NCBI RefSeq assembly: GCF_032444005.1
Contig: NC_091282.1
Location: 293,074,001-293,138,000, forward strand
DNA: 64,000 nt
Source of the DNA: Ranitomeya imitator
Lineage: Eukaryota
Reading direction: 5' to 3'
Part shown: positions 1-48,715 of the stretch, in pieces
Layout of the letters: each line of letters starts with the position of its first letter
Numbering within the stretch: position 1 is the first letter of the stretch
Notes under the pieces: generated by a model
What the model was told of the DNA's origin: nothing
What the model saw: only the letters and a program-made list of their open reading frames with translations
Databases searched by the model: none
Program-made: the position numbers and the translations under genes

Positions 1-2820
1 GAGATACTCCACCTTACAAGGTATCAAACACAGCCTCGACCTGGCCTGGCTATCCCCCAGCCAGTATTTCAGCCATAAAGCCCTAAGGGGTGCATTGGAA
101 AGGGCGGCTGACCTTGCCGCCAACATTAGAGTCATCCGATAGGAAGGCAGCTGCACCCTGCATAAGCGGAATGGTGGCTAAGATGTCATCCCTTGCCACC
201 CTGTCTTAACTGGGATTCCAGCCTGTCCAGCCAGATCATCAAGGACCTGGCCGTGCACGTTGCTGTTACAGACTGCTTTAGAGCACCAGCAGATTTCTCC
301 CAAATCCCTTTAAAAAAGGTGTTCGCTTTCCTATCCAGGCCATCTCTCAGAGCCCCCATATCATCCAAGGGCAGACAAGATCTGTTGGAAGCCTTAATAT
401 CGCAATATCCAGCTGAGGCTTTGTCCCATAAAGACGAAGACTGCTTGTCAAAGGGGTATTTTCTCTTGAAAGAAAGGGGTAGGAAGCCCTTGCTTTCCAG
501 ATTTCAGGAAATAAAAAGAAGTTCTGACTACTTCAATTACACATACAGAGCTCTCAGCTGCAGTTTCCTGTGCATGCATGTGTAATCTTAAACCCCTCAT
601 TTCCCCCTCCTTCAAGAATTTTTATGGCTTTGAGCTGCGAAAGCAGGTCTCCTTAAACTCCTCTTTCTCCTCTCCCACGGAATACCAGCCAAAACTGGTA
701 CAGAAAGCATGGGATTCTATTGTTCTCTTAAAGTTATATATATTGGCACCGATCAGGGCAAGAGATATAAGGGTTATATATTCTGGATGTCCATCGAGAG
801 ATCTATAGCTCACGGAAATAGTTAGGAGCTAAACCCAACGAGTGTAAGGAGCGGGTTTCTCCGTAAGCGGGTCATGTAACTACGCCGTGTTTACACTTAA
901 AAGAATCCCCCCCGACGGGGTACACATCCTGATTATTGTGTCTTTCGTATATGAGGTTCATACAGCGAGCTATGTATAAAAATGGTTGCCATAACTCTTA
1001 AGAAAAGGGGAGGATTCAACCTCTAAGTGATGTCACTACAGGGGGGAGTGCCTTGGTTTTAGGCTGAGAAATAAGTGAGTGAAGCAGTAGTCTTCACGTG
1101 TCTTTTGTCTGGGGCTAGCTGAGAGACAGGGGTGATGCATCCGGATATATGCTCGCCCATCCCCCACAGCACATGGCAGGCCATGAGATGAAATGACATA
1201 ACGCAATGTAAGTGTTCTCTTCAACTTTAATCCCATTTTATTTGTAATTGTACTGTACATACGATACTGGTCTTCGTTATAATATTTTTTATACTTCTGT
1301 AAACACTGCCTACTTTTTTTGGAGTAAAATATAAAATTACTAGCTTTGTCTCTCCTTGCTCTATAACGAATTGTCACGTCCTCTGAGGTGAATTACGCTA
1401 CTAATCTGGGTTGGCTCCGGACCCGTCAATAATTAGAAGCCAGAGCCGGTGGCAGCGGGATTTGTCCTGTGCGTTTGGGAGGCTTTGTAGTGACGGCGGC
1501 GTTTATAATTATTGTTCCTGAGTGGGAGTAGTTACATCGCCCTCACTGCAGTGTGCCTATTAGCTAGTACAAAGTACTAGCCTTTCTGGCGACTAATTAT
1601 CCTAGGTGCAGTACCTGACCTGAGGGTAAGAGGGGCGCCAGAGAGCTGCAAGTTCCAAACGGAACTATGAAGCGGGCTATAGATAAATCCCCTTCAGGAA
1701 GGAACCAGGGGCAACCAAACAACCCCGGTTCACGGCAAATTGGTGTGAGTGGTGGGGATGATAAAGGTATCCTCCCCATGAACCGTGACACCGGCTTTTT
1801 CCATTCTTTTTGTATTAGGGCCCTGATCTTTTCGTTCAATGGGAAAGACCTTCATTTTCTCTGGTCCATGCCTCAGAACATTATATCCTGTACTGATTTC
1901 TCAAACCTAGTGTCCATAATGCCCATAGTGGATCTGATGGATTTCACTAGCCTATCCACATCCTCAGGAAGAAAACAATGGTGCCCTGGACCCACTATCT
2001 GATGATGAGGAAGTCGTTCCTGTAGTCAGATTTAGAGGAAACGTCAGAAGTCAGGGAGGCCTCCCTAACTCTTCCTCTCTTATCTACCTCTTTTTTGGAG
2101 AGGGATCTAAGGGACTCTCTAATTTCTGCCCATAGGATGGCCCTTAAGTCGGTGGTGAAGCTAGGGGTCTCTTCCGTAACTGTTTGCTCTATAAAAGATT
2201 GGCAGAGCCTCTTGTGGACAGGAGTCAGGTAACAAGGTCTTACACAAAGCATATTTTGTGCTTGTTTTTAGCCACATACTTCTTTCCCTGGCAATAAATG
2301 ACAAGAAAGAAGGGGAACAACAATACCTGTGCTGACTAGAACCCCAAGCATTTCCGGACCGAGTGGCTATTATCTTGACTCACCTCCTGATGTTTCTTCA
2401 TTAGTCATGCCTCCTCCAGTAGTGAGTGTATAACCACATCATTCCCACACCTTCCGGTGCAGTCGCACCTTGTGAGAGTCACCGGAGCCATCATCAGGCA
2501 CACCTCCCCTGTCTCCACCCACCTCTGGCTCCAGGCGCACGACACGTCTAGCTTCAGTGACGCAATGCAGGGAGCTCAGAAAGGGGAAGACACGGCTACG
2601 CTTGGTGGAGCCACACCAGAGACACCCATCGTCAGTCAGGGAACGCCGCTAATGAGTGCAGTCCCATTGAAGCCACACTGGAGCTTCCTGGCATCCTGCA
2701 CAGGTAAGCCTACACAGGTTCCCACATCAAGGACAGGAAACCATCTTATGCGAGGGAGAGGTACTGTCCATTTTAGCATGTAGGTTTCCTGTCCTTGGTG
2801 GGCGATTCCCCTCTCATGAT
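1..2820 (-). mobile_element. Degenerate DIRS retrotransposon (ORF1/gag-like region and terminal sequence), interrupted at about 498-1790
   Basis: Broken frames give KEWKK...SFKRKYPFD and DRKANTFFKGIWEKSAGALKQSVTATCTARSLMIWL, recalled as amphibian DIRS ORF1-like; collinear with 58471-60095. Left end lies outside the window. Confidence 0.7.
498..1790. mobile_element. About 1.3-kb insert in the DIRS fragment, LTR-like
   Basis: Absent from the paralogous DIRS copy at about 58650; right end is ...TGACA; purine tract at about 1000-1014; no clear TSD. Confidence 0.4.
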
Positions 2821-3257
2821 GCAGTCATGGGTGGTCGCATAAACTTACCATTACTGGACTCTGGAGCGGTGGAAACATGTTCTCTGAAGTAATGAATCCC
2901 ATTTTACTGGAAGTGTCAATCAGATCTAGTAGTTTGGCAGACGTGTAGAGAATGCCAACTACGAGAATGCATAGTGTCTTATGGAAAAAACAAATACGGG
3001 GCCACTTTTCACTCCAAAATGCTGTAGAAAGTCTTACAAGAATCATCTATATGGACACATTACCATCACTTTGAGCTCAATGGACATCACCTTCGTAAGC
3101 CATAAACAATGGCTCCGCTTATAGTACTATAGCTGTATATGTGGATTCGCCGATTAGGACTTTGGAATGGGGATGTCCAATGAGCTCATAGTTGTGATGG
3201 TAAGGTGTCCACCTGTTTCACACCCAGCACATAAACATTGGCCATGACCTAGTGTTA

Positions 3258-3899: not shown

Positions 3900-4110
3900 T
3901 CTTTATGTCTTTAATATGTTTTATTTACAATACCAGGGGACTAATCAGAAGAGAATATGATAAAATTATTTTCTGCTGAAAAGCCTCAGCTATAATTTAA
4001 AGTTTGCACATTAAAAACATTACATGTAAAAAAAAAGATGGATAAAAGAAAAGCTCATATACATGGAGAAGAGTGTGACAGAACACAAGGGTCCACTTGA
4101 AAAACATTTC
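3900..4110 (-). other. CDC45: Probable non-coding last exon (3' UTR) of CDC45
   Basis: Pyrimidine-rich acceptor TTTCTCTTTCTAG ending at 4111, and AATAAA at 3925-3920. It is the clearest non-repeat acceptor plus poly(A) pair I found downstream of the exon-18 donor. The 3' end is approximate. Confidence 0.7.
3920..3925 (-). terminator. Polyadenylation signal AATAAA, probable CDC45 3' end
   Basis: TTTATT on the plus strand, about 185 nt into the putative last exon. Confidence 0.65.
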
Positions 4111-4281
4111 CTAGAAAGAGAAATTACAGGTTACCATCTGTTTGCTGCCATATATAAATAAAAAAAAAAAAAAAAAATTATATACACATGCGATTGTAAT
4201 AATTATATCTTACCCAACTATTTAATGTTTCATATTTGTAGCTAAGTTATAGAGCGGACTGACCTTTACAGATAGAGATAT

Positions 4282-4324
<43 letters not shown>

Positions 4325-4326
<2 letters not shown>

Positions 4327-6102
4327 GTATATACTCGAGTATAAGCCGAGATTTTCAGCCCAAATTTTTGGGCTGAAAGTGCCCCCCTCGGCTTATACTC
4401 GAGTCACGGTAGCGGTGGGGTCGGCGGGTGAGGGGGTGAGGGCGCTGAGGTATACTTACCTAGTCCCAGCGATCCTCGCGCTGTCCCTGCCGTCCCACGG
4501 GCTTCGGCGCTGCAGCTTCTTCCTCTCTTCAGCGGTCACGTGGGACCGCTCATTACAGAAATGAATAAGCGGCTCCACCTCCCATAGGGGCGGAGCCGCT
4601 TATTCATTTCTCTAATCAGCGGTGCCGGTGACCGCTGATAGAGAAAGAAGCTGCGGCACCGAAGACAGGAGGGGACAGCGCGAGGATCGCCAGGACTAGG
4701 TGAGTATAGCATATTCACCTGTCCTCGTTCCAGCCGCCGGGCGCCGATCCATCTTCCCGGCCGGCGCCTCCATCTTCCCGGCGTCTGCGCTCTCTGACTG
4801 ATCAGGCAGAGGGCGCGATGACGCATATAGTGTGCGCGGCGCCCTCTGCCTGATCAGTCAGAGCAGAGACGCCGGGAAGATGGAGGCGCCGGAACGAGAC
4901 GCCGGGAGCTGCAATCAAGGGAGGTGAGTATGTGTTTTTTTTTCTTTATTGCGGCAGCGGCGGCACAAATTTATGTGGAACATCTATGGGGCACAGTGAA
5001 CGGTGCAGAGCACCGTATATGGCACAGCACAGCTATGGGGTACAGTGAACGGTGCAGAGCACCGTATATGGCACAGCACAGCTATGGGGCACAATGAACG
5101 GTGCAGAGCACCGTATATGGCACAGCACAGCTATGGGGCACAGTGAACGGTGCAGAGCACCGTATATGGCACAGCTAGGGGGGGCACAGTGAACGGTGCA
5201 GAGCACCGTATATGGCACAGCTAGGGGGGGCACAGTGAACGGTGCAGAGCACCGTATATGGCACAGCACAGCTATGGGGCACAGTGAACGGTGCAGAGCA
5301 CCGTATATGGCACAGCACAGCTATGTATGGGGCACAGTGAACGGTGCAGAGCACCGTATATGGCACAGCACAGCTATGGGGCACAGTGAACGGTGCAGAG
5401 CACCGTATATGGCACAGCACAGCTATGGGGCACAGTGAACGGTGCAGAGCACCGTATATGGCACAGCACAGCTATGGGGCACAGTGAACGGTGCAGAGCA
5501 CCGTATATGGCACAGCACAGCTATGGGGCACAGTGAACGGTGCAGAGCACCGTATATGGCACAGCACAGCTATAGGGCACAGTGAACGGTGCAGAGCACC
5601 GTATATGGCACAGCACAGCTATGTATGGGGCACAGTGAACGGTGCAGAGCACCATATATGGCACAGCACAGCTATGTATGGGGCACAGTGAACGGTGCAG
5701 AGCACCGTATATGGCACAGCACAGCTATGGGGCACAGTGAACGGTGCAGAGCACCGTATATGGCACAGCTATGGGGCACAGTGAACGGTGCAGAGCACCG
5801 TATATGGCACATCTATGGGGCACAATGAACGGTGCAGAGCACCGTATATGGCACAGCTAGGGGGCATAATGAACGGTGCAGAGCACTATATGGTTCACAC
5901 CTATGGGGAAATATGAACGGTGCAGAGCACTATATGGCACAGCTATGGGGAAATAATGATCTATTTTTATTTTTGAAATTCACCGGTAAATGCTGCATTT
6001 CCACCCTAGGCTTATACTCGAGTCAATAAGTTTTCCCAGTTTTTTGTGGCAAAATTAGGGGGGTCGGCTTATACTCGGGTCGGCTTATACTCGAGTATAT
6101 AC

Positions 6103-6104
<2 letters not shown>
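4325..6104. mobile_element. Non-autonomous Tc1/mariner-superfamily (Tc2/pogo-like) element with an internal minisatellite
   Basis: TIR CCGTATATACTCGAGTATAAGCCGA, TA flanks inside a (TA)n tract, internal hairpins; second copy at 48716-50254. Confidence 0.82.
4985..5950. repeat. About 47-bp minisatellite array
   Basis: About 20 tandem units of GCACAGCTATGGGGCACAGTGAACGGTGCAGAGCACCGTATATGGCACA with small indels. Confidence 0.92.
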
Positions 6105-6154
<50 letters not shown>

Positions 6155-6946
6155 TATATATATACACATAGATATATATATATATATATAGCCAATACAA
6201 AAGGAAAAGCCAGACAGCACCACTGCCAGGAAGAACAAAGTGGGAACCGCTCACCTGTGTGAAGCCAGGATATCTGATCTTGGGTGCGTAGCTCCGCTGG
6301 AGNNNNNNNNNNNNNNNNNNNNNNNNNNNNNNNNNNNNNNNNNNNNNNNNNNNNNNNNNNNNNNNNNNNNNNNNNNNNNNNNNNNNNNNNNNNNNNNNNN
6401 NNNNNNNNNNNNNNNNNNNNNNNNNNNNNNNNNNNNNNNNNNNNNNNNNNNNNNNNNNNNNNNNNNNNNNNNNNNNNNNNNNNNNNNNNNNNNNNNNNNN
6501 NNNNNNNNNNNNNNNNNNNNNNNNNNNNNNNNNNNNNNNNNNNNNNNNNNNNNNNNNNNNNNNNNNNNNNNNNNNNNNNNNNNNNNNNNNNNNNNNNNNN
6601 NNNNNNNNNNNNNNGGACTCACACTCTCATTTAAAGATTTTTCTGTATTTTCATGACTATGAAAATTGTACATTCACACCAAAGGCATCAAAACCATGAA
6701 TTAACACATGTGGAATTATATACTTAACAAAAAAGTGTGAAACAACTGAAAATATGTCTTATATTCTAGGTTCTTCAAAGTAGCCACCTTTTGCTTTGGT
6801 GACTGCTTTGCACACTCTTGGCATTCTCTTGATGATCTTAGTAACATAGTAACATAGTTAGTAAGGCCGAAAAAAGACATTTGTCCATCCAGTTCAGCCT
6901 ATATTCCATCATAATAAATCCCCAGATCTACGTCCTTCTACAGAAC

Positions 6947-9727
6947 CTAATAATTGTATGATACAATATTGTTCTGCTCCAGGAAGACATCCAGGCCTCT
7001 CTTGAACCCCTCGACTGAGTTCGCCATCACCACCTCCTCAGGCAAGCAATTCCAGATTCTCACTGCCCTAACAGTAAAGAATCCTCTTCTATGTTGGTGG
7101 AAAAACCTTCTCTCCTCCAGACGCAAAGAATGCCCCCTTGTGCCCGTCACCTTCCTTGGTATAAACAGATCCTCAGCGAGATATTTGTATTGTCCCCTTA
7201 TATACTTATACATGGTTATTAGATCGCCCCTCAGTCGTCTTTTTTCTAGACTAAATAATCCTAATTTCGCTAATCTATCTGGGTATTGTAGTTCTCCCAT
7301 CCCCTTTATTAATTTTGTTGCCCTCCTTTGTACTCTCTCTAGTTCCATTATATCCTTCCTGAGCACCGGTGCCCAAAACTGGACACAGTACTCCATGTGC
7401 GGTCTAACTAGGGATTTGTACAGAGGCAGTATAATGCTCTCATCATGTGTATCCAGACCTCTTTTAATGCACCCCATGATCCTGTTTGCCTTGGCAGCTG
7501 CTGCCTGACACTGGCTGCTCCAGGTAAGTTTATCATTAACTAGGATCCCCAAGTCCTTCTCCCTGTCAGATTTACCCAGTGGTTTCCCGTTCAGTGTGTA
7601 ATGGTGATATTGATTCCCTCTTCCCATGTGTATAACCTTACATTTATCATTGTTAAACCTCATCTGCCACCTTTCAGCCCAAGTTTCCAACTTATCCAGA
7701 TCCATCTGTAGCAGAATACTATCTTCTCTTGTATTAACTGCTTTACATAGTTTTGTATCATCTGCAAATATCGATATTTTACTGTGTAAACCTTTTACCA
7801 GATCATTAATGAATATGTTGAAGAGAACAGGTCCCAATACTGACCCCTGCGGTACCCCACTGGTCACAGCGACCCAGTTAGAGACTATACCATTTATAAC
7901 CACCCTCTGCTTTCTATCACTAAGCCAGTTACTAACCCATTTACACACATGTTCCCCCAGACCAAGCATTCTCATTTTGTGTACCAACCTCTTGTGCGGC
8001 ACGGTATCAAACGCTTTGGAAAAATCGAGATATACCACGTCCAATGACTCACCGTGGTCCAGCCTATAGCTTACCTCTTCATAAAAACTGATTAGATTGG
8101 TTTGACAGGAGCGATTTCTCATAAACCCATGCTGATATGGAGTTAAACAGTTATTCTCATTGAGATAATCCAGAATAACATCCCTCAGAAACCCTTCAAA
8201 TATTTTACCAACAATAGAGGTTAGACTTACTGGCCTATAATTTCCAGGTTCACTTTTAGAGCCCTTTTTGAATATTGGCACCACATTTGCTATGCGCCAG
8301 TCCTGCGGAACAGACCCTGTCGCTATAGAGTCACTAAAAATAAGAAATAATGGTTTATCTATTACATTACTTAGTTCTCTTAGTACTCGTGGGTGTATGC
8401 CATCCGGACCCGGAGATTTATCTATTTTAATCTTATTTAGCCGGTTTCGCACCTCTTCTTGGGTTAGATTGGTGACCCTTAATATAGGGTTTTCATTGTT
8501 TCTTGGGATTTCACCTAGCATTTCATTTTCCACCGTGAATACCGTGGAGAAGAAGGTGTTTAATATGTTAGCTTTTTCCTCGTCATCTACAACCATTCTT
8601 TCCTCACTATTTTTTAAGGGGCCTACATTTTCAGTTTTTATTCTTTTACTATTGATATAGTTGAAGAACAGTTTGGGATTAGTTTTACTCTCCTTAGCAA
8701 TGTGCTTCTCTGTTTCCTTTTTGGCAGCTTTAATTAGTTTTTTAGATAAAGTATTTTTCTCCCTATAGTTTTTTAGAGCTTCAATGGTGCCATCCTGCTT
8801 TAGTAGTGCAAATGCTTTCTTTTTACTGTTAATTGCCTGTCTTACTTCTTTGTTTAGCCATATTGGGTTTTTCCTATTTCTAGTCCTTTTATTCCCACAA
8901 GGTATAAACCGCTTACACTGCCTATTTAGGATGTTCTTAAACATTTCCCATTTATTATCTGTATTCTTATTTCTGAGGATATTGTCCCAGTCTACCAGAT
9001 TAAGGGCATCTCTAAGCTGTTCAAACTTTGCCTTCCTAAAGTTCAATGTTTTTGTGACTCCCTGACAAGTCCCCCTAGTGAAAGACAGGTGAAACTGCAC
9101 AATATTGTGGTCGCTATTTCCTAAATGCCCGACCACCTGCAGATTTGTTATTCTGTCAGGTCTATTAGATAGTATTAGGTCTAAAAGTGCTGCTCCTCTG
9201 GTTGGATTCTGCACCAATTGTGAAAGATAATTTTTCTTGGTTATTAGCAGAAACCTGTTGCCTTTATGGGTTTCACAGGTTTCTGTTTCCCAGTTAATAT
9301 CCGGGTAGTTAAAGTCCCCCATAACCAGGACCTCATTATGGGTTGCAGCTTCATCTATCTGCTTTAGAAGTAGACTTTCCATGCTTTCTGTTATATTTGG
9401 GGGTTTGTAACAGACCCCAATGAGAATTTTGTTACCATTTTTCCCTCCATGAATTTCAACCCATATGGACTCGACATCCTCATTCCCTTCGCTAATATCC
9501 TCCCTTAAAGTGGACTTTAGACAAGACTTTACATAGAGACAAACCCCTCCTCCTCTCCGATTTTTACGATCCTTTCTAAACAGACTGTAACCCTGTAAGT
9601 TGACTGCCCAGTCATAGCTTTCATCTAACCATGTCTCGGTTATTCCCACTATGTCAAAGTTACCTGTAGATATTTCTGCTTCTAGTTCTTCCATCTTGTT
9701 TGTCAGGCTTCTGGCGTTTGCGAGCAT
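6947..9727 (-). CDS. CR1 ORF2: APE endonuclease plus reverse transcriptase, 926 aa, open
   Basis: GITETW, GDFNYP, SDH endonuclease motifs; [27 protein letters not shown] motifs. Confidence 0.95.
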   Translation of the reverse strand: MLANARSLTNKMEELEAEISTGNFDIVGITETWLDESYDWAVNLQGYSLFRKDRKNRRGGGVCLYVKSCLKSTLREDISEGNEDVESIWVEIHGGKNGNKILIGVCYKPPNITESMESLLLKQIDEAATHNEVLVMGDFNYPDINWETETCETHKGNRFLLITKKNYLSQLVQNPTRGAALLDLILSNRPDRITNLQVVGHLGNSDHNIVQFHLSFTRGTCQGVTKTLNFRKAKFEQLRDALNLVDWDNILRNKNTDNKWEMFKNILNRQCKRFIPCGNKRTRNRKNPIWLNKEVRQAINSKKKAFALLKQDGTIEALKNYREKNTLSKKLIKAAKKETEKHIAKESKTNPKLFFNYINSKRIKTENVGPLKNSEERMVVDDEEKANILNTFFSTVFTVENEMLGEIPRNNENPILRVTNLTQEEVRNRLNKIKIDKSPGPDGIHPRVLRELSNVIDKPLFLIFSDSIATGSVPQDWRIANVVPIFKKGSKSEPGNYRPVSLTSIVGKIFEGFLRDVILDYLNENNCLTPYQHGFMRNRSCQTNLISFYEEVSYRLDHGESLDVVYLDFSKAFDTVPHKRLVHKMRMLGLGEHVCKWVSNWLSDRKQRVVINGIVSNWVAVTSGVPQGSVLGPVLFNIFINDLVKGLHSKISIFADDTKLCKAVNTREDSILLQMDLDKLETWAERWQMRFNNDKCKVIHMGRGNQYHHYTLNGKPLGKSDREKDLGILVNDKLTWSSQCQAAAAKANRIMGCIKRGLDTHDESIILPLYKSLVRPHMEYCVQFWAPVLRKDIMELERVQRRATKLIKGMGELQYPDRLAKLGLFSLEKRRLRGDLITMYKYIRGQYKYLAEDLFIPRKVTGTRGHSLRLEERRFFHQHRRGFFTVRAVRIWNCLPEEVVMANSVEGFKRGLDVFLEQNNIVSYNY

Positions 9728-10019
9728 GCAGTTTAGAGGATTTTGTTTTGTTCCAATCTCCTCACTGTGGATTGTTTTAGAAATGTTCTTACCTCCCTTC
9801 AGAGTATGTTTTCCTGGGTCGTCTTTGTTCGAGTCTAATGTTTTTCTTCCCGTCCCCTCTTCTTCTAGTTTAACGCCCTCCTGATGAGTGTAGCGAGTCT
9901 TCTGGTGAATGTGTGTTTCCCAGGTTTGTTGAGGTGTAGTCCGTCTCTGGCGAGGAGTCCATCATACCAGTAATTCACACCGTGGTCCAGGAATCCGAAT
10001 CCTTGTTGTCTGCACCATC

Positions 10020-13000
10020 TGTTATGGCTGGCAATCAGGCAACACAGCATGCAGTAATCAGCGCACATACAGAGATCTGGCAATAACCAAAAACAATAGG
10101 ACGAGCTCTGAGACGTGGAATCTCTGTAGACTGCAGTACCTGATCTATCCTCACACAACTATAAGCAGCAGTGGATTGCGCCTATCACTACCTATGCAAC
10201 TCGGCACTGCCTGAGGAGCTGACTAGCCTGAAGATAGAAATACAAGCCTGACTTACCTCAGAGAAATACCCCAAAGGAATAGGCAGCCCCCCACATATAA
10301 TGACTGTTAGCAAGATGAAAAGACAAACGTAGGAATGAAATAGATTCAGCAAAGTGAGGCCCGATATTCTAGACAGAGCGAGGATAGCAAAGAGAACTAT
10401 GCAGTCCACAAAAAACCCTAAAACGAAAACCACGCAAAGGGGCAAAAAGACCCACCGTGCCGAACTAACAGCACGGCGGTGCACCCCTTTGCTTCTCAGA
10501 GCTTCCAGCAAAAGTTAATAGCAAGCTGGACAGAAAAAACAGAAAACAAACTAGAAGCACTTATCTAGCAGAGCAGCAGGCCCAAGGAAAGATGCAGTAG
10601 CTCAGATCCAACACTGGAACATTGACAAGGAGCAAGGAAGACAGACTCAGGTGGAGCTAAATAGCAAGGCAGCCAACGAGCTCACCAAAACACCTGAGGG
10701 AGGAAGCCCAGAGACTGCAATACCACTTGTGACCACAGAAGTGAACTCAGCCACAGAATTCACAACAGTACCCCCCCCTTGAGGAGGGGGTCACCGAACC
10801 CTCACCAGAACCCCCAGGCCGACCAGGATGAGCCACATGAAAGGCACGAACAAGATCTGGGGCATGGACATCAGAGGCAAAAACCCAGGAATTATCTTCC
10901 TGAGCATAACCCTTCCATTTGACCAGATACTGGAGTTTCCGTCTAGAGACACGAGAATCCAAAATCTTCTCCACAATATACTCCAATTCCCCCTCCACCA
11001 AAACAGGGGCAGGAGGCTCCACAGATGGAACCATAGGTGCCACGTATCTCCTCAACAACGACCTATGGAATACATTATGTATGGAAAAGGAGTCTGGGAG
11101 GGTCAGACGAAAAGACACCGGATTGAGAATCTCAGAAATCCTATACGGACCAATAAAACGAGGTTTAAATTTAGGAGAGGAAACCTTCATAGGAATATGA
11201 CGAGAAGATAACCAAACCAGATCCCCAACACGAAGTCGGGGTCCCACACGGCGTCTGCGATTAGCGAAAAGCTGAGCCTTCTCCTGGGACAAGGTCAAAT
11301 TGTCCACTACCTGAGTCCAGATCTGCTGCAACCTGTCCACCACAGAATCCACACCAGGACAGTCCGAAGACTCAACCTGTCCTGAAGAGAAACGAGGATG
11401 GAACCCAGAATTGCAGAAAAATGGAGAGACCAAGGTAGCCGAGCTGGCCCGATTATTAAGGGCGAACTCAGCCAACGGCAAAAATGACACCCAATCATCC
11501 TGGTCAGCGGAAACAAAACATCTCAGATATGTTTCCAAGGTCTGATTGGTTCGTTCGGTCTGGCCATTAGTCTGAGGATGGAAGGCCGAGGAGAAAGATA
11601 GGTCAATGCCCATCCTACCACAAAAGGCTCGCCAGAACCTCGAGACAAACTGGGAACCTCTGTCAGAAACAATATTCTCAGGAATGCCATGTAAACGAAC
11701 CACATGCTGGAAGAACAAAGGCACCAAATCAGAGGAGGAAGGCAATTTAACCAAGGGCACAAGATGGACCATTTTAGAAAAGCGATCACAGACCACCCAA
11801 ATGACCGACATTTTTTGAGAAACGGGAAGGTCAGAAATGAAATCCATCGAAATATGTGTCCAAGGCCTCTTCGGGACCGGCAAGGGCAAAAGCAACCCAC
11901 TGGCACGTGAACAGCAGGGCTTAGCCCTAGCACAAATTCCACAGGACTGCACAAAAGCACGCACATCCCGTGACAGAGATGGCCACCAGAAGGATCTAGC
12001 AACCAACTCCCTGGTACCAAAGATTCCTGGATGACCGGCCAGCACCGAACAATGAAGTTCAGAGATAACTTTACTAGTCCACCTATCAGGGACGAACAGT
12101 TTCTCGGCCGGATAACGATCAGGTTTATTAGCCTGAAATTTCTGCAACACTCTCCGCAAATCAGGGGAGATGGCAGACACAATGACTCCTTCCTTGAGGA
12201 TACTCGCCGGCTCAGATAACCCCGGAGAGTCGGGCACAAAACTCCTAGACAGAGCATCCGCCTTCACATTTTTAGAGCCCGGAAGGTATGAAATCACAAA
12301 ATCAAAACGAGCAAAAAATAACGACCAACGGGCCTGTCTAGGATTCAAGCGCTTGGCAGACTCAAGATAAGTAAGGTTCTTATGATCAGTCAAAACCACC
12401 ACGCGATGCTTAGCACCCTCAAGCCAATGACGCCACTCCTCGAATGCCCACTTCATGGCCAGCAACTCTCGGTTGCCCACATCATAATTACGCTCAGCAG
12501 CAGAAAATTTCCTGGAAAAGAAAGCACATGGTTTGAACACTGAGCAACCAGAACCTCTCTGTGACAAAACCGCCCCTGCACCAATCTCAGAAGCATCAAC
12601 CTCGACCTGGAACGGAAGAGAAACATCAGGTTGACACAACACAGGGGCACAGCAAAAACGACGCTTCAACTCCTGAAAAGCTTCCACGGCAGCAGAAGAC
12701 CAATTAACCAAATCAGCACCCTTCTTGGTCAAATCGGTCAATGGTCTGGCAATGCTAGAAAAATTACAGATGAAGCGACGATAAAAATTAGCAAAGCCCA
12801 GGAATTTCTGCAGACTTTTTAGAGATGTCGGCTGAGTCCAATCCTGGATGGCCTGAACCTTAACCGGATCCATTTCGATAGTAGAAGGGGAAAAAATGAA
12901 CCCCAAAAATGAAACTTTCTGCACACCGAAGAGACACTTTGATCCCTTCACGAACAAGGAATTAGCACGCAGTACCTGGAAAACTATTCTGACTTGCTTC

Positions 13001-15700
13001 ACATGAGACTCCCAATCATCTGAGAAGATCAAAATGTCATCCAAGTAAACAATCAAGAATTTATCCAGATACACACGGAAAATGTCATGCATAAAAGACT
13101 GAAAAACAGATGGAGCATTGGCAAGTCCGAACGGCATCACCAGATACTCAAAATGACCCTCGGGCGTATTAAATGCCGTTTTCCATTCATCTCCCTGCCT
13201 GATTCTCACCAGATTATACGCACCACGAAGATCAATCTTAGTAAACCAACTAGCCCCCTTAATCCGAGCAAACAAGTCAGAAATCAATGGCAAGGGATAC
13301 TGAAACTTAACAGTGATCTTATTAAGAAGGCGGTAATCAATACACGGTCTTAGCGAACCATCCTTCTTGGCTACAAAAAAGAACCCTGCTCCCAATGGTG
13401 ACGACGATGGGCGAATATGTCCCTTCTCCAGGGACTCCTTCACATAACTGCGCATAGCGGTGTGTTCAGGTACGGACAAATTAAATAAACGACCCTTAGG
13501 GAATTTACTACCATGAATCAAATCGATAGCACAATCACAATTCCTATGCGGAGGTAGGGCATCAGACTTGGACTCTTCAAATACATCCTGAAAGTCCGAC
13601 AAGAACTCTGGGATGTCAGAAGGAATGGATGACGAAATAGACAAAAATGGAACATCACCATGTACTCCCTGACAACCCCAGCTGGTTACCGACATAGAGT
13701 TCCAATCCAATACTGGATTATGGGTTTGTAGCCATGGCAACCCCAACACGACCACATCATGCAAATTATGCAGTACCAGAAAGCGAATAACTTCCTGATG
13801 TGCAGGAGCCATGCACATGGTCAGCTGGGCCCAGTACTGAGGCTTATTCTTGGCCAAAGGTGTAGCATCAATTCCTCTCAACGGAATAGGACACCGCAAA
13901 GGCTCCAAGAAAAATCCACAACGTTTAGCATAATCCAAATCCATCAGATTCAGGGCAGCGCCTGAATCCACAAACGCCATGACAGAATACGATGACAAAG
14001 AGCACATTAAGGTAATGGACAAAAGGAATTTGGACTGTACAGTACCAATAACGGCAGAGCTATCGAACCGCCTAGTGCGTTTAGGACAATTAGAAATAGC
14101 ATGAGTAGAATCACCACAATAGAAACACAGTCTGTTCAGACGTCTGTGTTCTACTTTAGTCATAGTCCTGTCGCACTGCATAGGCTCAGGTTTACTCTCA
14201 GACAATACCGCCAGATGGTGCACAGATTTACGCTCGCGCAAGCGACGACCGATCTGAATGGCCAAGGACATAGACTCATTCAAACCAGCAGGCATAGGAA
14301 ATCCCACCATTACATCCTTAAGAGCTTCAGAGAGACCCTTTCTGAACAAAGCCGCTAGTGCAGATTCATTCCACAGAGTGAGTACTGACCACTTCCTAAA
14401 TTTCTGACAATATACTTCTACATCATCCTGACCCTGGCATAAAGCCAGCAGATTTTTCTCAGCCTGATCCACTGAATTAGGCTCATCGTAAAGCAATCCC
14501 AGCGCCTGGAAAAATGCATCAACATTACTCAATGCAGAATCTCCTGGTGCAAGAGAAAACGCCCAGTCCTGTGGGTCGCCGCGCAAAAAAGAAATAATAA
14601 TCAAAACCTGTTGAATAGGATTACCAGAAGAATGAGGTTTCAAGGCCAAAAATAGCTTACAATTATTTCTGAAGCTCAGGAACTTAGTTCTGTCACCAAA
14701 AAACAAATCAGGAATCGGAATTCTTGGTTCTAGCATCGATTTCTGATCAATAGTATCTTGAATCTTTTGTACATTTACAACGAGATTATCCATTGAGGAG
14801 CACAGAGCCTGAATATCCATGTCCACAGCTGTGTCCTGAAGCACTCTAATGTCTAGGGGAAAAAAAAGACTGAAGACAGAGCTAAGAAAAAAAAATGATG
14901 TCAGGATTTCTTTTTTCCCTCTATTGGGAATCATTGGTGGGGCTCCTTGTACTGTTATGGCTGGCAATCAGGCAACACAGCATGCAGTAATCAGCGCACA
15001 TACAGAGATCTGGCAATAACCAAAAACAATAGGACGAGCTCTGAGACGTGGAATCTCTGTAGACTGCAGTACCTGATCTATCCTCACACAACTATAAGCA
15101 GCAGTGGATTGCGCCTATCACTACCTATGCAACTCGGCACTGCCTGAGGAGCTGACTAGCCTGAAGATAGAAATACAAGCCTGACTTACCTCAGAGAAAT
15201 ACCCCAAAGGAATAGGCAGCCCCCCACATATAATGACTGTTAGCAAGATGAAAAGACAAACGTAGGAATGAAATAGATTCAGCAAAGTGAGGCCCGATAT
15301 TCTAGACAGAGCGAGGATAGCAAAGAGAACTATGCAGTCCACAAAAAACCCTAAAACGAAAACCACGCAAAGGGGCAAAAAGACCCACCGTGCCGAACTA
15401 ACAGCACGGCGGTGCACCCCTTTGCTTCTCAGAGCTTCCAGCAAAAGTTAATAGCAAGCTGGACAGAAAAAACAGAAAACAAACTAGAAGCACTTATCTA
15501 GCAGAGCAGCAGGCCCAAGGAAAGATGCAGTAGCTCAGATCCAACACTGGAACATTGACAAGGAGCAAGGAAGACAGACTCAGGTGGAGCTAAATAGCAA
15601 GGCAGCCAACGAGCTCACCAAAACACCTGAGGGAGGAAGCCCAGAGACTGCAATACCACTTGTGACCACAGAAGTGAACTCAGCCACAGAATTCACAACA
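10020..15700 (-). mobile_element. Gypsy chromovirus (sushi-like) LTR retrotransposon, copy 1
   Basis: 748-bp TG...CA LTRs at 10020-10767 and 14953-15700 that look identical by eye; PPT AAGGGGGGGG beside the 3' LTR; TSD ACCATC. Confidence 0.97.
10747..14820 (-). CDS. Gag-Pol polyprotein in one open frame (gag, CCHC knuckle, protease, RT, RNase H, integrase, chromodomain)
   Basis: [27 protein letters not shown]...TDH, HHCC, ISMDF...SDRG...E and KILDSR...YLVKWKGY motifs; likely start ATG (MDIQ) at 14820. Confidence 0.95.
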   Translation of the reverse strand: MDIQALCSSMDNLVVNVQKIQDTIDQKSMLEPRIPIPDLFFGDRTKFLSFRNNCKLFLALKPHSSGNPIQQVLIIISFLRGDPQDWAFSLAPGDSALSNVDAFFQALGLLYDEPNSVDQAEKNLLALCQGQDDVEVYCQKFRKWSVLTLWNESALAALFRKGLSEALKDVMVGFPMPAGLNESMSLAIQIGRRLRERKSVHHLAVLSESKPEPMQCDRTMTKVEHRRLNRLCFYCGDSTHAISNCPKRTRRFDSSAVIGTVQSKFLLSITLMCSLSSYSVMAFVDSGAALNLMDLDYAKRCGFFLEPLRCPIPLRGIDATPLAKNKPQYWAQLTMCMAPAHQEVIRFLVLHNLHDVVVLGLPWLQTHNPVLDWNSMSVTSWGCQGVHGDVPFLSISSSIPSDIPEFLSDFQDVFEESKSDALPPHRNCDCAIDLIHGSKFPKGRLFNLSVPEHTAMRSYVKESLEKGHIRPSSSPLGAGFFFVAKKDGSLRPCIDYRLLNKITVKFQYPLPLISDLFARIKGASWFTKIDLRGAYNLVRIRQGDEWKTAFNTPEGHFEYLVMPFGLANAPSVFQSFMHDIFRVYLDKFLIVYLDDILIFSDDWESHVKQVRIVFQVLRANSLFVKGSKCLFGVQKVSFLGFIFSPSTIEMDPVKVQAIQDWTQPTSLKSLQKFLGFANFYRRFICNFSSIARPLTDLTKKGADLVNWSSAAVEAFQELKRRFCCAPVLCQPDVSLPFQVEVDASEIGAGAVLSQRGSGCSVFKPCAFFSRKFSAAERNYDVGNRELLAMKWAFEEWRHWLEGAKHRVVVLTDHKNLTYLESAKRLNPRQARWSLFFARFDFVISYLPGSKNVKADALSRSFVPDSPGLSEPASILKEGVIVSAISPDLRRVLQKFQANKPDRYPAEKLFVPDRWTSKVISELHCSVLAGHPGIFGTRELVARSFWWPSLSRDVRAFVQSCGICARAKPCCSRASGLLLPLPVPKRPWTHISMDFISDLPVSQKMSVIWVVCDRFSKMVHLVPLVKLPSSSDLVPLFFQHVVRLHGIPENIVSDRGSQFVSRFWRAFCGRMGIDLSFSSAFHPQTNGQTERTNQTLETYLRCFVSADQDDWVSFLPLAEFALNNRASSATLVSPFFCNSGFHPRFSSGQVESSDCPGVDSVVDRLQQIWTQVVDNLTLSQEKAQLFANRRRRVGPRLRVGDLVWLSSRHIPMKVSSPKFKPRFIGPYRISEILNPVSFRLTLPDSFSIHNVFHRSLLRRYVAPMVPSVEPPAPVLVEGELEYIVEKILDSRVSRRKLQYLVKWKGYAQEDNSWVFASDVHAPDLVRAFHVAHPGRPGGSGEGSVTPSSRGGYCCEFCG

Positions 15701-16505
15701 ACCATCGTCTTAGCCAGTTGTTTGCATCAAGGATCCTGTTCCATCTCCTGGTGCCATGCCCGTCTACTGGAAGGATAGAAGAAAAAACTACCTGTGCATC
15801 CAGTTCCTTTACTTTCTTCCCCAACTCTTCAAAGTCCTTGCAGATTGTCGGTAGGTCCTTCCTTGCCGTGTCATTGGTGCCAACATGTATCAGAAGAAAT
15901 GGGTGGACGTCCTTGGAGCTGAAGAGCTTTGGTATCCTATCGGTCACATCCTTGATCATCGCACCTGGAAGGCAGCATACTTCTCTTGCAGTTATGTCCG
16001 GTCTGCAGATGGCTGCTTCTGTGCCTCTCAGTAGTGAGTCTCCCACCACCACCACTCTTCGTTGCTTCTTGGCTGTACTTTTTGCTGTCACTTGTTGCTG
16101 TGTGCCCTTTTCTTTTTTGCTTGCTGGTATTGCTTCATTCTTAGGTGTGCCATCTTCATCCTCTACAAAGATTTGATATCGGTTCTTCAGTTGTGTGGTT
16201 GGTGATTTCTCCATGGTCTTCTTGCTTCTTTTGGTCACATGCTTCCACTCATCTGCTTTTGGAGGTTCTCTGTCACTTTTTGCACCTTCTGTGACCAGTA
16301 GAGATGCTTCTGTTCTGTCTAGAAAGTCTTCATTCTCTTTGATGAGTTTCAAAGTTGCTATTCTTTCTTCCAGACCCCGCACCTTTTCTTCTAAAAGGGC
16401 CACTAGTCTACACTTCTGACAGGTGAAATTGGATTCTTCTTCTGGTCGATCTGTGAACATGTAGCACATGCTGCAGCTCACCATGTAGGTTGTCACATCT
16501 GCCAT
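15701..16505 (-). CDS. CR1 ORF1, N-terminal part (Cys-rich N-terminus plus SGNH-esterase-like domain); continues at 10013-9865
   Basis: CSMC...CQKC; GDSL, GTND and a later DGLH motif. Removing the Gypsy and one TSD copy rejoins NNWLRRW/CRQQG into a 317-aa frame. Confidence 0.88.
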
Positions 16506-18208
16506 GTTGCTCCTAGATCCTGCTGACTTGCTGTGTGTTTTCCTTCTTGTGTAATCTACTCAGCCAAGCTCTCTTGCAATAATGTCCTACAGGCAAAAAT
16601 TTGCGCGCCGTAAGGCGCGCGGTTTGGTGATGCTTTCGAAGCAGCTGGTCCCGGCTGTACCCAAAGATCTTCAAGAGGTAGTCACCGGGAATGGTTTTCA
16701 CTTCACAGGTGTGCCCTGTCAGGTTTAATAAGTGGAATTTCTTGCCTTATAACTGGGGTTGGGACCATCAGTTGTGTTGTGCAGAAGTCTGGTGGATACA
16801 CAGCTGATAGTCCTACTGAATAGACTGTTAGAATTTGGATTATGGCAAGAAAAAAGCAGCTAAGTAAAGAAAAACGAGTGGCCGTCATTACTTTAAGAAA
16901 TGAAGGTCAATCAGTCCGAAAAATTGGGAAAACTTTGAAAGTGTCCACAAGTGCAGTGGCAAAAACCATCAAGTGCTACAAAGAAACTGGCTCACTTGAG
17001 GACCGCCCCAGGAAAGGAAGACCAAGAGTCACCTCTGCTTCTGAGGATAAGTTTATCTGAGTCACCAGCCTCAGAAATTGCAGGTTAACAGCAGCTCAGA
17101 TTAGAGACCAGGTCAATGCCACACAGAGTTCTAGCAGCAGACACATCTCTACAACAACTGTTAAGGAGGAGACTTTGTGCAGCAGGCCTTCATGGTAAAA
17201 TAGCTGCTAGGAAACCACTGCTAAGGACAGGCAACAAGAAGAAGAGACTTGTTTAGGCTAAAGAACACAAGGAATGGACATTAGACCAGTGGAAATCTGT
17301 GCTTTGATCTGATGAGTCCAAATTTGAGATCTTTGGTTCCAAGCACCGTGTCTTTGTGTGACGCAGAAAAGGTGAATGGATGGACTCAACATGCCTGGTT
17401 CCCACCGTGAACCATGGAGGAGGAGGTGTGATGGTGTGGGGGTGCTTTGCTGGTGACACTGTTAAGGATTTATTCAAAATTGAAGGCATACTGAACCAGC
17501 ATGGCCACCACAGCATCTTGCAGCGGCATGCTATTTCATCCGGTTTGCGTTTAGTTGGACCATCATTTATTTTTCAACAGGACAATGACCTCAAACACAC
17601 CGCCAGGCTGTGTAAGGGCTATTTGACCAAGAAGGAGTGTGATGGGGTGCTACGCCAGATGACCTGGCCTCCACAGTCACCAGACCTGAACCCAATCGAG
17701 ATGGTTTGGGGTGAGCTGGACCGCAGAGTGAAGGCAAAAGGGCCAACAAGTGCTAAGCATCTCTGGGAACTCCTTCAAGATTGTTGGAAGACCAATCCCG
17801 GTGACTACCTCTTGAAGCTCATCAAGAGAATGCCAAGAGTGTGCAAAGCAGTTATTAAAGCAAAAGGTGGCTACTTTGAAGAACCTAGAAAATAAGACAT
17901 ATTTTCCGTTGTTTCACACTCTTTTGTTAAGTATATAATTCCACATGTGTTAATTCATAGTTTTGATGCCTTCAGTGTGAATGTACAATTTTCATAGTCA
18001 TGAAAATACAGAAAAATCTTTTAAGTGAGAAGGTGTGTCCAAACTTTTGGTCTGTACTGTAACCAATAAACCGTTAAATAGTTGGGTAAGATATAATTAT
18101 TACAATCACATGTAAATAAAACATATAAAGAATTTAGTTAAATTAAGCAATTATGGGTAAAATCTCTAACAAATTGAGAAAATATGTAAATTCTGAATTT
18201 AACATACC

Positions 18209-18273
18209 TTATGAGAGGAGAGAAATGAGAGCATCTAGAAATTTGCTTCGGTCTTCCGTCCTTAATTCAATTA
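18209..18273 (-). CDS. CDC45: CDC45 last coding exon (exon 18 equivalent), ending in TAA
   Basis: (I)IELRTEDRSKFLDALISLLS*; the stop is followed by one G (18208) and a GTATG donor. Exons 4-18 sum to 1506 nt in one frame. Confidence 0.96.
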
Positions 18274-18624
18274 CTAAATACGATGTAAACAAAAAAGTTT
18301 TTTATCATCATTAACCTTCTTGCAACTCCTAAAGTCCAAATTCACTATGAGCTTGAAAATACATTATTAGTTATCAGATCTATTCATGTGCTCAAGAATG
18401 AAAAGCAACTTCTCCAGAAGTCAACCCCCCACTACTTCCTCTCGGCTATTTTGCTGGTAAAATTCCAACCACTCAAAACATGTTAAGAGGGACATGGGTC
18501 ATACTGAACTAACAGTCTGACCTCATTAAAGCCACTGCAGCAGCTACTGTGCAGCCAGCCGCAATGCTTAATCTCAAAAGTTTGATCTAGAGCTCATAAT
18601 TCATCAAGAATGGTCTTCACTCAC

Positions 18625-18701: not shown

Positions 18702-19302
18702 CTAGAGATAAAAAGGTTTAAAAAAAAAAAAAAAAAAGGTACATGAGTATTCCAGTAGCATTATGCATTTATGACCTTAAAAAATCAAAACTATAAATTT
18801 AAATATTACACAAACTCAAAGCCTACAGTATAGTGTACTGAAAAGTTACTAAACCATAAAATTAGTTACAAAAAAAGAAAAATTACAGTCAGAAGACTAA
18901 CATATACAATTGTTCTGTATTGAAAATGTTCATGATTAAGGATGCTTCTAAATTTAAACGTGTAGATCTACATTGTCTTTTGCAGAATGTTTTACAGGAT
19001 ATTCAATGTCGGAATTTTAACCTTTGTATTTTCTATTAAAAACATTTTTCTGCCCACCGTAAAGCTGGAATTTTGCCTTGCATACTGAAAAGTCCTGCAT
19101 ATAATGCCAGTTACTTGAGCGAGTGGTGAAGGCTGCTGCCGATTGGCTGCAGCGGTTATGTGATACAGATGTTGAGTGCAGAGGCGCAAGGCTGTTGCAG
19201 TAGGTAAGTATCTGGTGGTGGACACCCCCTTTTTTAAAAAGATAAGGAAACAATTCCTGTGTTCACAAAGGCTAATCTGTACCCCAAATAAAAGGATCTT
19301 AC

Positions 19303-24120: not shown

Positions 24121-25143
24121 CAAGTTACATCAAATAAATACAGTTAGGTCCATATATATTTGGACAGAGACAACATTTTTCTAATTTTGGTTTTAGACAT
24201 TACCACAATGAATTTTAAACAACGCAATTCAGATGCAGTTGAAATTCAGACTTTCAGCTTTCATTTGAGGGTATCCACATTAAAATTATATGAAGGGTTT
24301 AGGAGTTTCAGCTCCTTAGCATGTGCCACCCTGTTTTCAAAGGGACCAAAAGTAATTGGACAATTGACTCCAAGGCTATTTCATGGATAGGTGTGGGCAA
24401 TCCCTTCGTTATGTCATTCTCAATTAATCAGATAAAAGGCCTGGAGTTGATTTGAGGTGTGGTGCTCGCATTTGGAAGGTTTTGCTGTGAAGTAAACATG
24501 CTGTCAAAGGAGCTCTCCATGCAGGTGAAACAAGCCATCCTTAAGCTGCAAAAACAGAAAAAAACTCATCCGAGAAATTGCTACAATATTAAGAGTAGCA
24601 AAATCGACAGTTTGATACATCCTGAGAAAGAAAGAAAGCACTGGTGAACTCATCAATGCAAAAAGACATGGGCGCCCACAGAAGAGAACAATGGTGGATG
24701 ATCGCAGAATAATCTCCATGGTGAAGAGAAACCCCTTCACAACAGCCAACCAAGTGAACAACACTCTCCAGGAGGTAGACGTATCAATATCCAAATCTAT
24801 CATAAAGAGAAGACTGCATGAAAGTTAATACAGAGGGTTCACTACACGGTGCAAGCCACCCATAAGCATCAAGAATAAAAAGGCTAGACTGGACTTTGCT
24901 AAAAAAACATCTAAAAAAGCCATCACAGTTCTGGAAGAACATTCTTTGGACAGATTAAACCAAGATCAACCTGGGGCGTGGCCTGAACGTCCATGTGAGC
25001 GGACGTGTGACAGAGCGCTCCCGCTGCTAACGCTGAATTTATCCTGATAAGCCACAGCTGAGCGGCGATTCAAGGCGCTTACCGGCTGCAGGAGAGTCCC
25101 GGGAGTGCGGAGGTGAATAGAGGCGGACCCGAGGTCAACAAAT

Positions 25144-26206
25144 ATGACCAGAAGGAGGCAAAGAGATGCAGGAGCCGGCGAGGCTGGGACCGGCCAAGAT
25201 GGCGCCGACGCCAGGGAGAAGGCGGAGAAGGACAACGCGGCATGCCAGAAGAGAATGGCGGCGGCGGCAAAGCTCCAGCAGTTTGCTAGAGTGGAGGCCG
25301 CAGGGAAAACAGGAAAAGCAGAGGAGGACGCCGGAGCAGACACAGACACAGAAGGAGAGGAGGAAAGCCCAGCAGAGGAGCAGGAGGTACAACAGGGGAG
25401 CAGGAATGGTGACATGGCGGTGGTAGTAGGGGGATCTGAAGATAAGGAGTCAGGAGTAGAGCCCACCCTTAGAGATGTTTTTGCACTGGTATCATCATGC
25501 AAACAATCCCTGACCCAGCAGCTACAGGAGGTCAAGGGGGATACAGCCCAGATAAATGCAGCCCTGCAGAAGATTGACAAACGTGTGGGGGCTGTGGAGG
25601 AAAGAGTGAGCACGGCAGAAGACCATATAGTGCAGCTGCAGAAAGCGGAGAGGAAGTTTACTCAAGCAATATCGGAGCTAGCTGCCAAAAATGAGGATCT
25701 GGAGAATAGGTCCAGAAGAAATAACATTCGTATAGTGGGTGTCCCTGAAAAAACTGAGGGGAGGAATCCCACGGAGTATATTGAAAGCTGGCTCCTTGAG
25801 ACTTTTGGTGATGCAGTACTGACAAAAGTATTTGCGGTAGAAAGAGCCCACAGGGTCCCACCGAAACCACCTGTCCCTGGAGCAAGTCCCCGTACCATGC
25901 TTGCCAAAATCCTAAACTACAGAGACAGAGACATTATCCTGAGGAAGGCTAGAGACATGACGGATCTGACAATTGGAGGTCAAAGAATTGCTATTTACCC
26001 TGACTATTCCGCCCTGGTACAGAAACAACGGATGATGTTCACGGGTATCAAGAGACGGCTGAGAGAACTGGGAGTGCAATACTCCATGATGTTTCCGGCA
26101 CGACAGAGTGGTAGCGTTGGATAAGATTCATTTTTTCCAGACGCCGGAGGACGCTACCCAGTGGATAGATCTTAACGCTAAAAAGCTTAAAGGGAAAGGA
26201 GATTGA
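25144..26206 (+). CDS. L1 ORF1 with a late frameshift near 26104
   Basis: Coiled coil, RSRRNNIRIVGVPE, ERAHR and YPDYS motifs; C-terminus RVVALDKIHFFQTPEDA continues in another frame to TGA at 26204-26206. Confidence 0.88.
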
Positions 26207-26662
26207 AAATGTGGGGTGGGTTAGTCGGGAGGTATTTTACTTCTTTCAAAAAGGGGAAAAAGAGATGGACTGACAGTACATTGGTAATTGAAATGTGAAG
26301 GTTGGAGGGTGGAGCTGGGTATTACTCAGGGAACGCACTGGGAGTGCTGATGCGGCGGAGAAGTACGAGGGATGAAGGGGGTGCAGCATACTAAAAGTTT
26401 ATTTAGTTTCTTGCAGTTGTAATTTAATACAGGTTGAATTATTTTGTTCTTCTAAGAATTGCGGCGAATTCTGTTATAAACGGTAGCGGGAGGCGGAAGG
26501 AGAAGGTTATGTTAATAAGAGTGTTCGCAATGGGTGATGGTGCCCCACTCTTGATAAGAGGCAGAATGTATAGTATTGGGGGGTGTGGGGGAGGGGGGGT
26601 AGGTGTAAGGGTGGGGAGGGAAGTTAGACAGCTCAGAACTGGGAGTAACGACATAACTAAAG

Positions 26663-48304: not shown

Positions 48305-48715
48305 CTAGCAAAGCAAGAAATAAGCACAGAATAATCACATAGTCAAAAATAATAACTGATCGTTATATAAAAGTTTCAAAGGGGATTTCGCATCTCCAAG
48401 ATCATATCCCAATATGTAGCAGGTGTAATAATAATATTAGAAAATATCTCCAATTATCAGGACTAGAAATACCAACAGTGTATGAATATAAAACTATGAA
48501 TACCAAATAAAATCTATTACCCAAAAAATGTATTCAAGAAAAACAATAAAATAATGAATAATTATAATTTTATTAATAATTATAAAATCATGATTACACA
48601 AAAATCAGCTAAAAATATTGTAATAATGTTATGCACATACAAAAAACAATTGGTGAGATAAAAAGAATTTATTAAGATTAATTTAAAAATTACAATAAAA
48701 AAACAACAATAGGTA

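What the first reader, a model, noticed from the sequence alone, without database searches (positions are those of the whole stretch)
4186..18113. 40-bp inverted repeat brackets the 14-kb, transposon-filled last intron of CDC45
Seen: 4186-4225 (ACATGCGATTGTAATAATTATATCTTACCCAACTATTTAA) and 18074-18113 are reverse complements at 39/40 positions. They lie about 75 nt from the putative 3' splice site (4111) and about 94 nt from the 5' splice site (18207). In the minus-strand pre-mRNA the one difference is a G-U wobble, so the helix is fully paired. Inference: it could loop out about 13.85 kb of nested Tc1/CR1/Gypsy/MITE DNA and its cryptic splice sites, acting as an RNA bridge. Alternatives are TIRs of an old MITE later inflated by insertions, or an inverted duplication at inversion breakpoints. 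I saw no flanking TSD, and no similar pair at the ends of the other long introns.
Basis: partly seen in the sequence, partly recalled or inferred. Interest (0 to 1): 0.7.

Follow-up and report, generated by a model that had tools for sequence, protein, structure and literature searches.

The report
Inversion scar in frog CDC45 intron
A 40-base sequence occurs twice, back to back, near the two ends of the transposon-stuffed last intron of a frog's CDC45 gene and nowhere else in the genome; it is most likely the scar of a recent flip of the intron's interior rather than a built splicing aid, although the two copies would be able to pair in the RNA.

Summary
The repeat is real: 39 of 40 bases match, the core occurs only twice in the 5.96-Gb genome, and an RNA-like run confirms both splice sites. 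The intron is the known vertebrate CDC45 3'UTR intron. The pair is not a transposon end, unlike 3 of 3 control pairs tested. Its closeness to both splice sites is largely automatic: only 58 visible bases between the arms are unique, the rest is transposon. In a close relative (about 2.6% divergent) one contig joins the arm, and the 46 bases that here lie inside the 3' arm, to what is by length the exon-18 side. A more distant relative shows no arm on the 3' side. That is the pattern of an inversion with an inverted duplication at its breakpoints. An assembly-graph chimera could mimic the first result. No conservation or covariation supports a selected RNA bridge; the wobble and the 39/40 match fit neutral drift. 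The scan noted similar intron-closing stems on other DNA (unchecked notes). Verdict: real, probably an accidental rearrangement scar; low to modest interest.

The parts
18208..18273 (-). CDC45 last coding exon (exon 18 by human numbering); stop codon TAA 18211-18209, one UTR base, then the donor
   Evidence: protein match; spliced contigs; same layout in human
4111..18207 (-). Last intron, 14,097 nt, GT..AG, lying in the 3'UTR
   Evidence: (junction 18208 to 4110)
18074..18113 (-). 5' arm of the inverted repeat, 94 nt from the donor; inferred to be the original copy
   Evidence: original-copy status inferred (X4 record 7)
4186..4225 (-). 3' arm, 75 nt from the acceptor; inferred to be the derived duplicate
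4226..4271 (.). 46 nt of unique spacer inside the 3' arm; in organism B it follows the arm on a contig whose outer part is not the exon-19 side
18062..18073 (.). 12 nt of unique spacer between the Tc1-type element and the 5' arm
4272..6190 (.). TA microsatellite with an inserted MITE-like element (4323-6110, inverted ends, internal tandem repeats)
   Evidence: the MITE label is by structure and recalled
6191..6302 (.). Visible part of a young dispersed repeat (40 of 40 scored matches 96-100% identical)
6615..18061 (+). Tc1-type DNA transposon, about 1.6 kb when nested elements are removed; terminal repeats 6615-6839 (visible part) and 17815-18061; nearest copies 96-97% identical
   Evidence: DDE_3 match E 3.7e-6, just under the curated cut-off; family name recalled
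6840..16665 (-). LINE (endonuclease + reverse transcriptase ORF 6950-9961) inserted into the left terminal repeat of the Tc1-type element
   Evidence: 'CR1' label recalled
10019..15700 (-). Chromodomain LTR retrotransposon nested in the LINE; the two 749-nt LTRs are identical
3920..4110 (-). Start of the last, non-coding exon, down to the first AATAAA (3925-3920); its true 3' end was not mapped

Best explanation
The two 40-base arms are a single-locus inverted repeat that most likely arose recently, in this frog's lineage or its common ancestor with a close relative, when the interior of the intron was likely inverted and 40 bases at one breakpoint were likely copied to the other. The ancestral intron would have carried the 40-mer once, 94 nt after the donor, followed by the 46 nt now at 4226-4271. 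A staggered break or a replication template switch would have flipped the interior and left the second copy 75 nt before the acceptor. Splice sites and the likely branch region lie outside the flipped part, so the event would have been tolerated. Transposons inflated the spacer to 13.85 kb (shown by anatomy; their order relative to the inversion is not known). The arms can form a stable helix in the pre-mRNA (computed), but as a by-product; the Tc1-type terminal repeats just inside can pair far more strongly.
For: Single locus: 2 hits for the core, 2 of 2 candidates for each arm with flanks, while 3 of 3 other long-spacer pairs and the second CDC45 pair were multicopy. Run X4 (organism B, 5 differences in 195 bases): one 763-letter contig runs unbroken through 4192-4271; its 625 outer letters do not lay on 4030-4144, which another contig covers; counted on the exon-18 side they end at 18732, inside the only other long A run nearby (18720-18737). 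Run X1 (own organism) breaks into three contigs at the shared core, as two copies should. Run X13 (organism C, about 6.6% divergent): the exon-19 contig has 147 letters past 4144 and none lays on 4192-4271. 39/40 identity fits an age near the A-B split. The pattern is a described product of staggered breaks (PMC1885836) and of template-switch types that make an inverted repeat around an inverted spacer (PMC5453318).
Against: At depth about 5 an assembly graph could prune two short branches and join the exon-18 side to the 3' spacer, so B may have both arms as here. Missing pieces in contigs prove nothing by the tool's own warning; organism D (90 and 105 spare letters) is uninformative. The flanks of the arms keep some similarity (87.5% over 56 bases; B's change at 4228 matches the other arm's flank), which hints at an older, longer repeat or at microhomology. 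312 N bases hide part of the spacer, and B's next 30 letters were not found in this genome.
Confidence: 0.55

Rival explanations
1. An older local hairpin (quasi-palindrome with a loop of some 60-350 nt) in a short ancestral intron, present in relatives too, functionless, whose loop was stretched to 13.85 kb by TA-targeting transposons; template switching or conversion may have kept the core nearly perfect.
For: Only 46 + 12 visible unique bases lie between the arms. Similarity decays outside the core. Short-spacer near-perfect inverted repeats are common among the 34 pairs found in 1.064 Mb. A graph chimera would reconcile with it.
Against: Organism C shows no arm or spacer on the 3' side despite 147 spare letters, and B's contig is unbroken.
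Confidence: 0.2
2. A functional RNA bridge: the arms pair in the pre-mRNA, bring donor and acceptor within about 170 nt and protect splicing of a conserved 3'UTR intron from 13.85 kb of transposon sequence; selection keeps them paired, whatever their origin.
For: Helix of -56.6 kcal/mol, unique sequence, placed outside the splice signals. The one difference keeps pairing in the sense strand. The intron is conserved in vertebrates and a human donor variant in it is reported in patients (PMC11219862). Nine AATAAA sites lie in the sense strand of the intron. No change within the arm is listed for organism B.
Against: One wobble has a 0.25-0.34 chance; 39/40 is neutral expectation; no change in 34 bases at 2.6% divergence is uninformative. 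No compensatory change seen. 11 of the other 12 scored introns, two of them about 10 kb, lack such a pair. The Tc1-type terminal repeats give -342 kcal/mol 12 nt inside the 5' arm, so the extra helix may add little. The stop codon precedes the intron, so mis-processing changes only the UTR.
Confidence: 0.15
3. Terminal inverted repeats of an old or rare MITE that later received nested insertions, as at intron 48305-51471.
For: That origin holds for 3 of 3 control pairs and for the second CDC45 pair.
Against: No other copy at any identity, although the same search found families at 81-95% identity for the controls; no target-site duplication; arms too alike for an old extinct family.
Confidence: 0.06
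4. Assembly artefact of the reference.
For: The intron is repeat-rich; run X1 did not show the inner flank of the 3' arm.
Against: X1 contigs support both outer junctions and the 5' arm-to-Tc1 junction with no other letters; X1 may be the source sample, so this is not fully independent.
Confidence: 0.03

Closest known systems
Inverted duplications at inversion breakpoints from staggered breaks (Drosophila; PMC1885836, passages read)
   Same: A non-repetitive sequence present twice in inverted orientation on either side of a segment that appears flipped in a relative.
   Different: Here the event is inside one intron, the duplicate is 40 bases, and the outgroup state is inferred from short-read contigs only.
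Four-point template switch, types 1-3-4-2 / 3-1-2-4 (PMC5453318, passages read) and microinversions flanked by inverted repeats (PMC8755829, abstract read)
   Same: [quoted passage not shown]
   Different: Those events span tens of bases; here the spacer was 60-350 nt if the transposons came later, or kilobases if the Tc1-type element was already there.
Long-range intronic RNA pairings: conserved complementary regions and RNA bridges (PMC8052449, passages read); repeat-derived stems in large introns (PMC2773006, abstract read); zebrafish simple-repeat introns (PMC4691745, search listing only)
   Same: Strong complementarity in the sense strand between distant parts of an intron, which would shorten the donor-acceptor distance.
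   Different: Those are defined by conservation and covariation, by experiments, or by interspersed or simple repeats; this pair is unique sequence with no shown conservation. In PMC8052449 'RNA bridge' means bringing a protein-binding site to an exon, which was not examined here.
Vertebrate CDC45 intron 18 in the 3'UTR (PMC11219862, passages read)
   Same: Donor one base after the stop codon, G at +5, last exon non-coding.
   Different: Human intron 1571 nt; 14,097 nt here. No RNA structure was mentioned in the passages seen.

Membership tests
Inverted duplication at inversion breakpoints | Duplicated sequence is non-repetitive | tested here: met
   two places in 5.96 Gb
Inverted duplication at inversion breakpoints | Two copies in inverted orientation flank the segment | tested here: met
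Inverted duplication at inversion breakpoints | Relatives carry one copy only | tested here: inconclusive
   B one unbroken contig, C none on the 3' side, D uninformative; contigs cannot show absence
Inverted duplication at inversion breakpoints | Spacer lies in the opposite orientation in relatives | tested here: inconclusive
   supported by one contig, by length; graph chimera not excluded
MITE or DNA transposon terminal repeats | Further copies in the genome | tested here: not met
   controls 34, 53-55 found families
MITE or DNA transposon terminal repeats | Target-site duplication outside the arms | tested here: not met
   outer flanks differ
Functional long-range intronic RNA helix | Stable pairing in the sense strand, clear of splice signals | tested here: met
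   -56.6 kcal/mol computed; 94 and 75 nt from the ends
Functional long-range intronic RNA helix | Both arms conserved across species with compensatory changes | tested here: inconclusive
   no relative shown to have both arms; no paired change seen; data thin
Functional long-range intronic RNA helix | Pairing in cells and an effect on splicing | not testable with these tools
   needs duplex crosslinking and minigenes
Described RNA family (Rfam) | Match at the gathering score | tested here: not met
   0 matches in the window

The most novel reading that the evidence does not exclude
A chance rearrangement scar was co-opted as a splicing clamp: once the inversion had put complementary 40-mers beside both ends of CDC45's conserved 3'UTR intron, the helix buffered splicing and let that intron swell from a few hundred bases to 14 kb, a datable birth of a long-range RNA bridge and a route by which giant frog genomes tolerate intron growth.
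Probability: 0.12. Interest if true: 0.65.

Novelty: new member of a known kind. Interest (0 to 1): 0.27.

Why it matters
If it is a scar, it is a small, well-dated example of an inversion inside an intron of an essential gene and a warning that an inverted repeat hugging both splice sites can arise by rearrangement plus transposon inflation. If the helix also aids splicing, it would show how long-range RNA bridges originate and how transposon-rich amphibian introns stay spliceable, in an intron whose human donor is linked to Meier-Gorlin syndrome.

Tried and rejected
High-copy terminal repeat: rejected. Rfam family: 0 matches. Local structure of each intron end on its own: not unusual, z 0.39 and 0.59. 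Arm core in metagenome contigs: 0 matches. Organism B's 30 inner letters: 0 matches in the window and in the genome; N bases limit this. Genome search with the MITE-like element returned nothing, not even itself, so it is undated; this also shows that DNA search alone cannot prove rarity, which is why the pattern search carries that claim. No listed run is on record as RNA; X3 was judged RNA-like from its spliced contigs. One search was swamped by Tc1 copies, so loose ends at the 5' arm were among 150 rows not shown; depth bins there for C and D fit several readings and were not used as evidence. Run X6 covered 7 of 30 bins; a hole proves nothing. Only 7 of 24 listed runs were laid. Of 33 other pairs only 3 were tested genome-wide, so the base rate of truly single-copy pairs is not known. 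Paper searches showed no report of an RNA structure or inversion in this intron in their listings; supplements were not read. Earlier findings: none nearby or by sequence.

Full report
Observation. The arms 4186-4225 and 18074-18113 are reverse complements at 39 of 40 positions; with a gap the match extends to 56 bases at 87.5%. In the minus-strand RNA the difference is a G-U pair; the computed duplex is -56.6 kcal/mol, against -53.1 for the opposite strand. The alignment score of the first against the last 250 nt of the intron is 78, at most 31 in 100 shuffles.

Gene and splice sites. The exon at 18273-18208 encodes the CDC45 C-terminus; the best protein hit for another exon is a poison frog protein at 100% over 44 residues, so the genome (5.96 Gb) is likely a poison frog's. 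The stop codon is followed by one base and then the donor. A contig of run X3 skips 18274-18624 and another has a loose end at 18207 that reads window 4080-4109, so the 4110 acceptor is used. The same 3'UTR intron, one base after the stop, is conserved in most vertebrates, is 1571 nt in human, and a +5 donor variant is reported in patients (PMC11219862, passages).

Copy number. The 34-base core with up to 2 mismatches occurs twice in the genome, reversed control 0. Each arm with its flanks gave 2 of 2 candidates, both at this locus. In 1,064,000 contiguous bases around the window there are 34 locally unique inverted pairs of at least 30 bases and 93% identity, this one included. I tested 3 of the other 33, chosen for long spacers; all 3 were dispersed repeats with 40 or more matches. 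So a single-locus pair is the exception, and a transposon-end origin is unlikely; there is no target-site duplication either.

Other introns. Of 14 introns examined 13 were scored (one too short; boundaries approximate, one small exon may be missed). Two stand out: this one and 48305-51471 (score 81; the rest 27 or less). The second pair lies 142 and 73 nt from the intron ends and belongs to a multicopy family.

What lies between the arms. 46 unique bases (4226-4271); a TA microsatellite with a MITE-like element (4272-6190); a young repeat; 312 N bases; a Tc1-type element ending at 18061, whose nearest copies are 96-97% identical, with a LINE in its left terminal repeat and a chromodomain LTR element with identical LTRs inside the LINE (the names Tc1, CR1, MITE are recalled labels); then 12 unique bases. 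Without insertions the spacer would be about 60-350 nt and the whole intron a few hundred bases. Any repeat pair in such an intron is near both splice sites, so the striking position is mostly a result of inflation. Transposon build-up in poison frog introns is described (bioRxiv 10.1101/2023.11.06.565769, passages).

Relatives. No related genome is held, so I used assembled sequencing runs (7 of 24 laid, 4 per call, two runs in both). On 4030-4272: run X1, own organism, breaks into three contigs at the shared core, as two copies should. Run X4, organism B (5 differences in 195 bases), has one contig for the exon-19 side that ends 20 letters past 4144, and a second, 763 letters, that runs unbroken through 4192-4271 with 3 differences (two listed, at 4228 and 4241, outside the arm). 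Its 625 outer letters do not lay on 4030-4144; counted on the exon-18 side they end at 18732, inside the A run 18720-18737. So in B the arm on the exon-18 side seems to be followed by the spacer that here follows the 3' arm. Run X13, organism C (about 6.6%), has 147 letters past 4144 that do not lay on the arm or spacer. Run X12, organism D (about 5.9%), has too few spare letters to tell.

Limits of that evidence. The exon-18 identity is inferred from length. At depth about 5, graph cleaning could remove two short branches and produce the same contig from an arrangement like ours; I judge the true-junction reading about three times as likely for that contig (my estimate, from recalled behaviour of such assemblers). 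Missing pieces do not prove absence. The flanks of the arms retain some similarity, which may be microhomology or the remains of a longer repeat.

Mechanism. Shown: single-locus inverted repeat, real splice sites, transposon-filled spacer, capacity to pair. Inferred: one ancestral copy after the donor, an inversion of the interior that copied 40 bases to the far breakpoint, in this lineage or in its ancestor shared with B. Staggered breaks give inversions flanked by inverted duplications of non-repetitive sequence (17 of 29 inversions, PMC1885836, passages); template-switch types 1-3-4-2 / 3-1-2-4 create an inverted repeat around an inverted spacer (PMC5453318, passages); human-chimpanzee microinversions are flanked by inverted repeats (PMC8755829, abstract). 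Which process acted, and whether the Tc1-type element was already inside, cannot be told: one mismatch in 40 allows 0.06-13% divergence.

Function. Nothing here shows selection on pairing. At most one mismatch in 40 has P 0.72 at 2.6% and 0.59 at 3.5% divergence; a single substitution leaves a G-U pair with P 0.25-0.34. Two introns of about 10 kb in the same gene have no such pair. The Tc1-type terminal repeats, starting 12 nt inside the 5' arm, give -342 kcal/mol, the kind of repeat-derived stem proposed for large vertebrate introns (PMC2773006, abstract). Conserved long-range pairings are defined by conservation and compensatory change (PMC8052449, passages), neither shown here. Function is not excluded: the helix is strong, sits clear of the splice signals, and the intron holds nine sense-strand AATAAA sites.

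Verdict. Real and not a transposon end; most likely a recent inversion scar (0.55), otherwise an inflated old hairpin (0.2) or a selected bridge (0.15). A new member of a known kind; interest 0.27. The scan noted intron-closing stems in other genomes (unchecked notes), none at this locus.

Noticed in passing
window 48378-48456 and 51254-51329: A second CDC45 intron (48305-51471) is bracketed by an 80-base inverted pair, the ends of a multicopy MITE-like element with another MITE-like element (48714-50260) nested inside.
   Followed up: yes
window 10019-15700 and 52236-57921: Two copies of the same LTR retrotransposon, 99.2% identical, sit in two introns of CDC45, both in the gene's sense orientation.
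   Followed up: no
window 24139-31531: Another DNA transposon with 224-base terminal repeats (95%) carries a LINE-like element with long open frames at 25117-26121 and 26657-30427.
   Followed up: no
window 6844-7986 and 36405-37544: A 1.1-kb piece of the same LINE recurs in another intron at 98.7% identity.
   Followed up: no
window 4272-6302: A TA microsatellite acts as an insertion hotspot: the MITE-like element and a young repeat family both sit in it, and 4 of 5 other copies of that repeat inspected also adjoin TA runs. Organism B has other sequence at this point.
   Followed up: partly
L091:1748-5007 (about 148 kb left of the window): A 1620-base palindrome, 99.3% identical arms, 20-base spacer; may be a real large inverted duplication or an assembly error.
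   Followed up: no
window 305-2827 and 58462-60102: Degraded copies of one repeat (72-84% identical) lie downstream of the gene and in an upstream intron.
   Followed up: no
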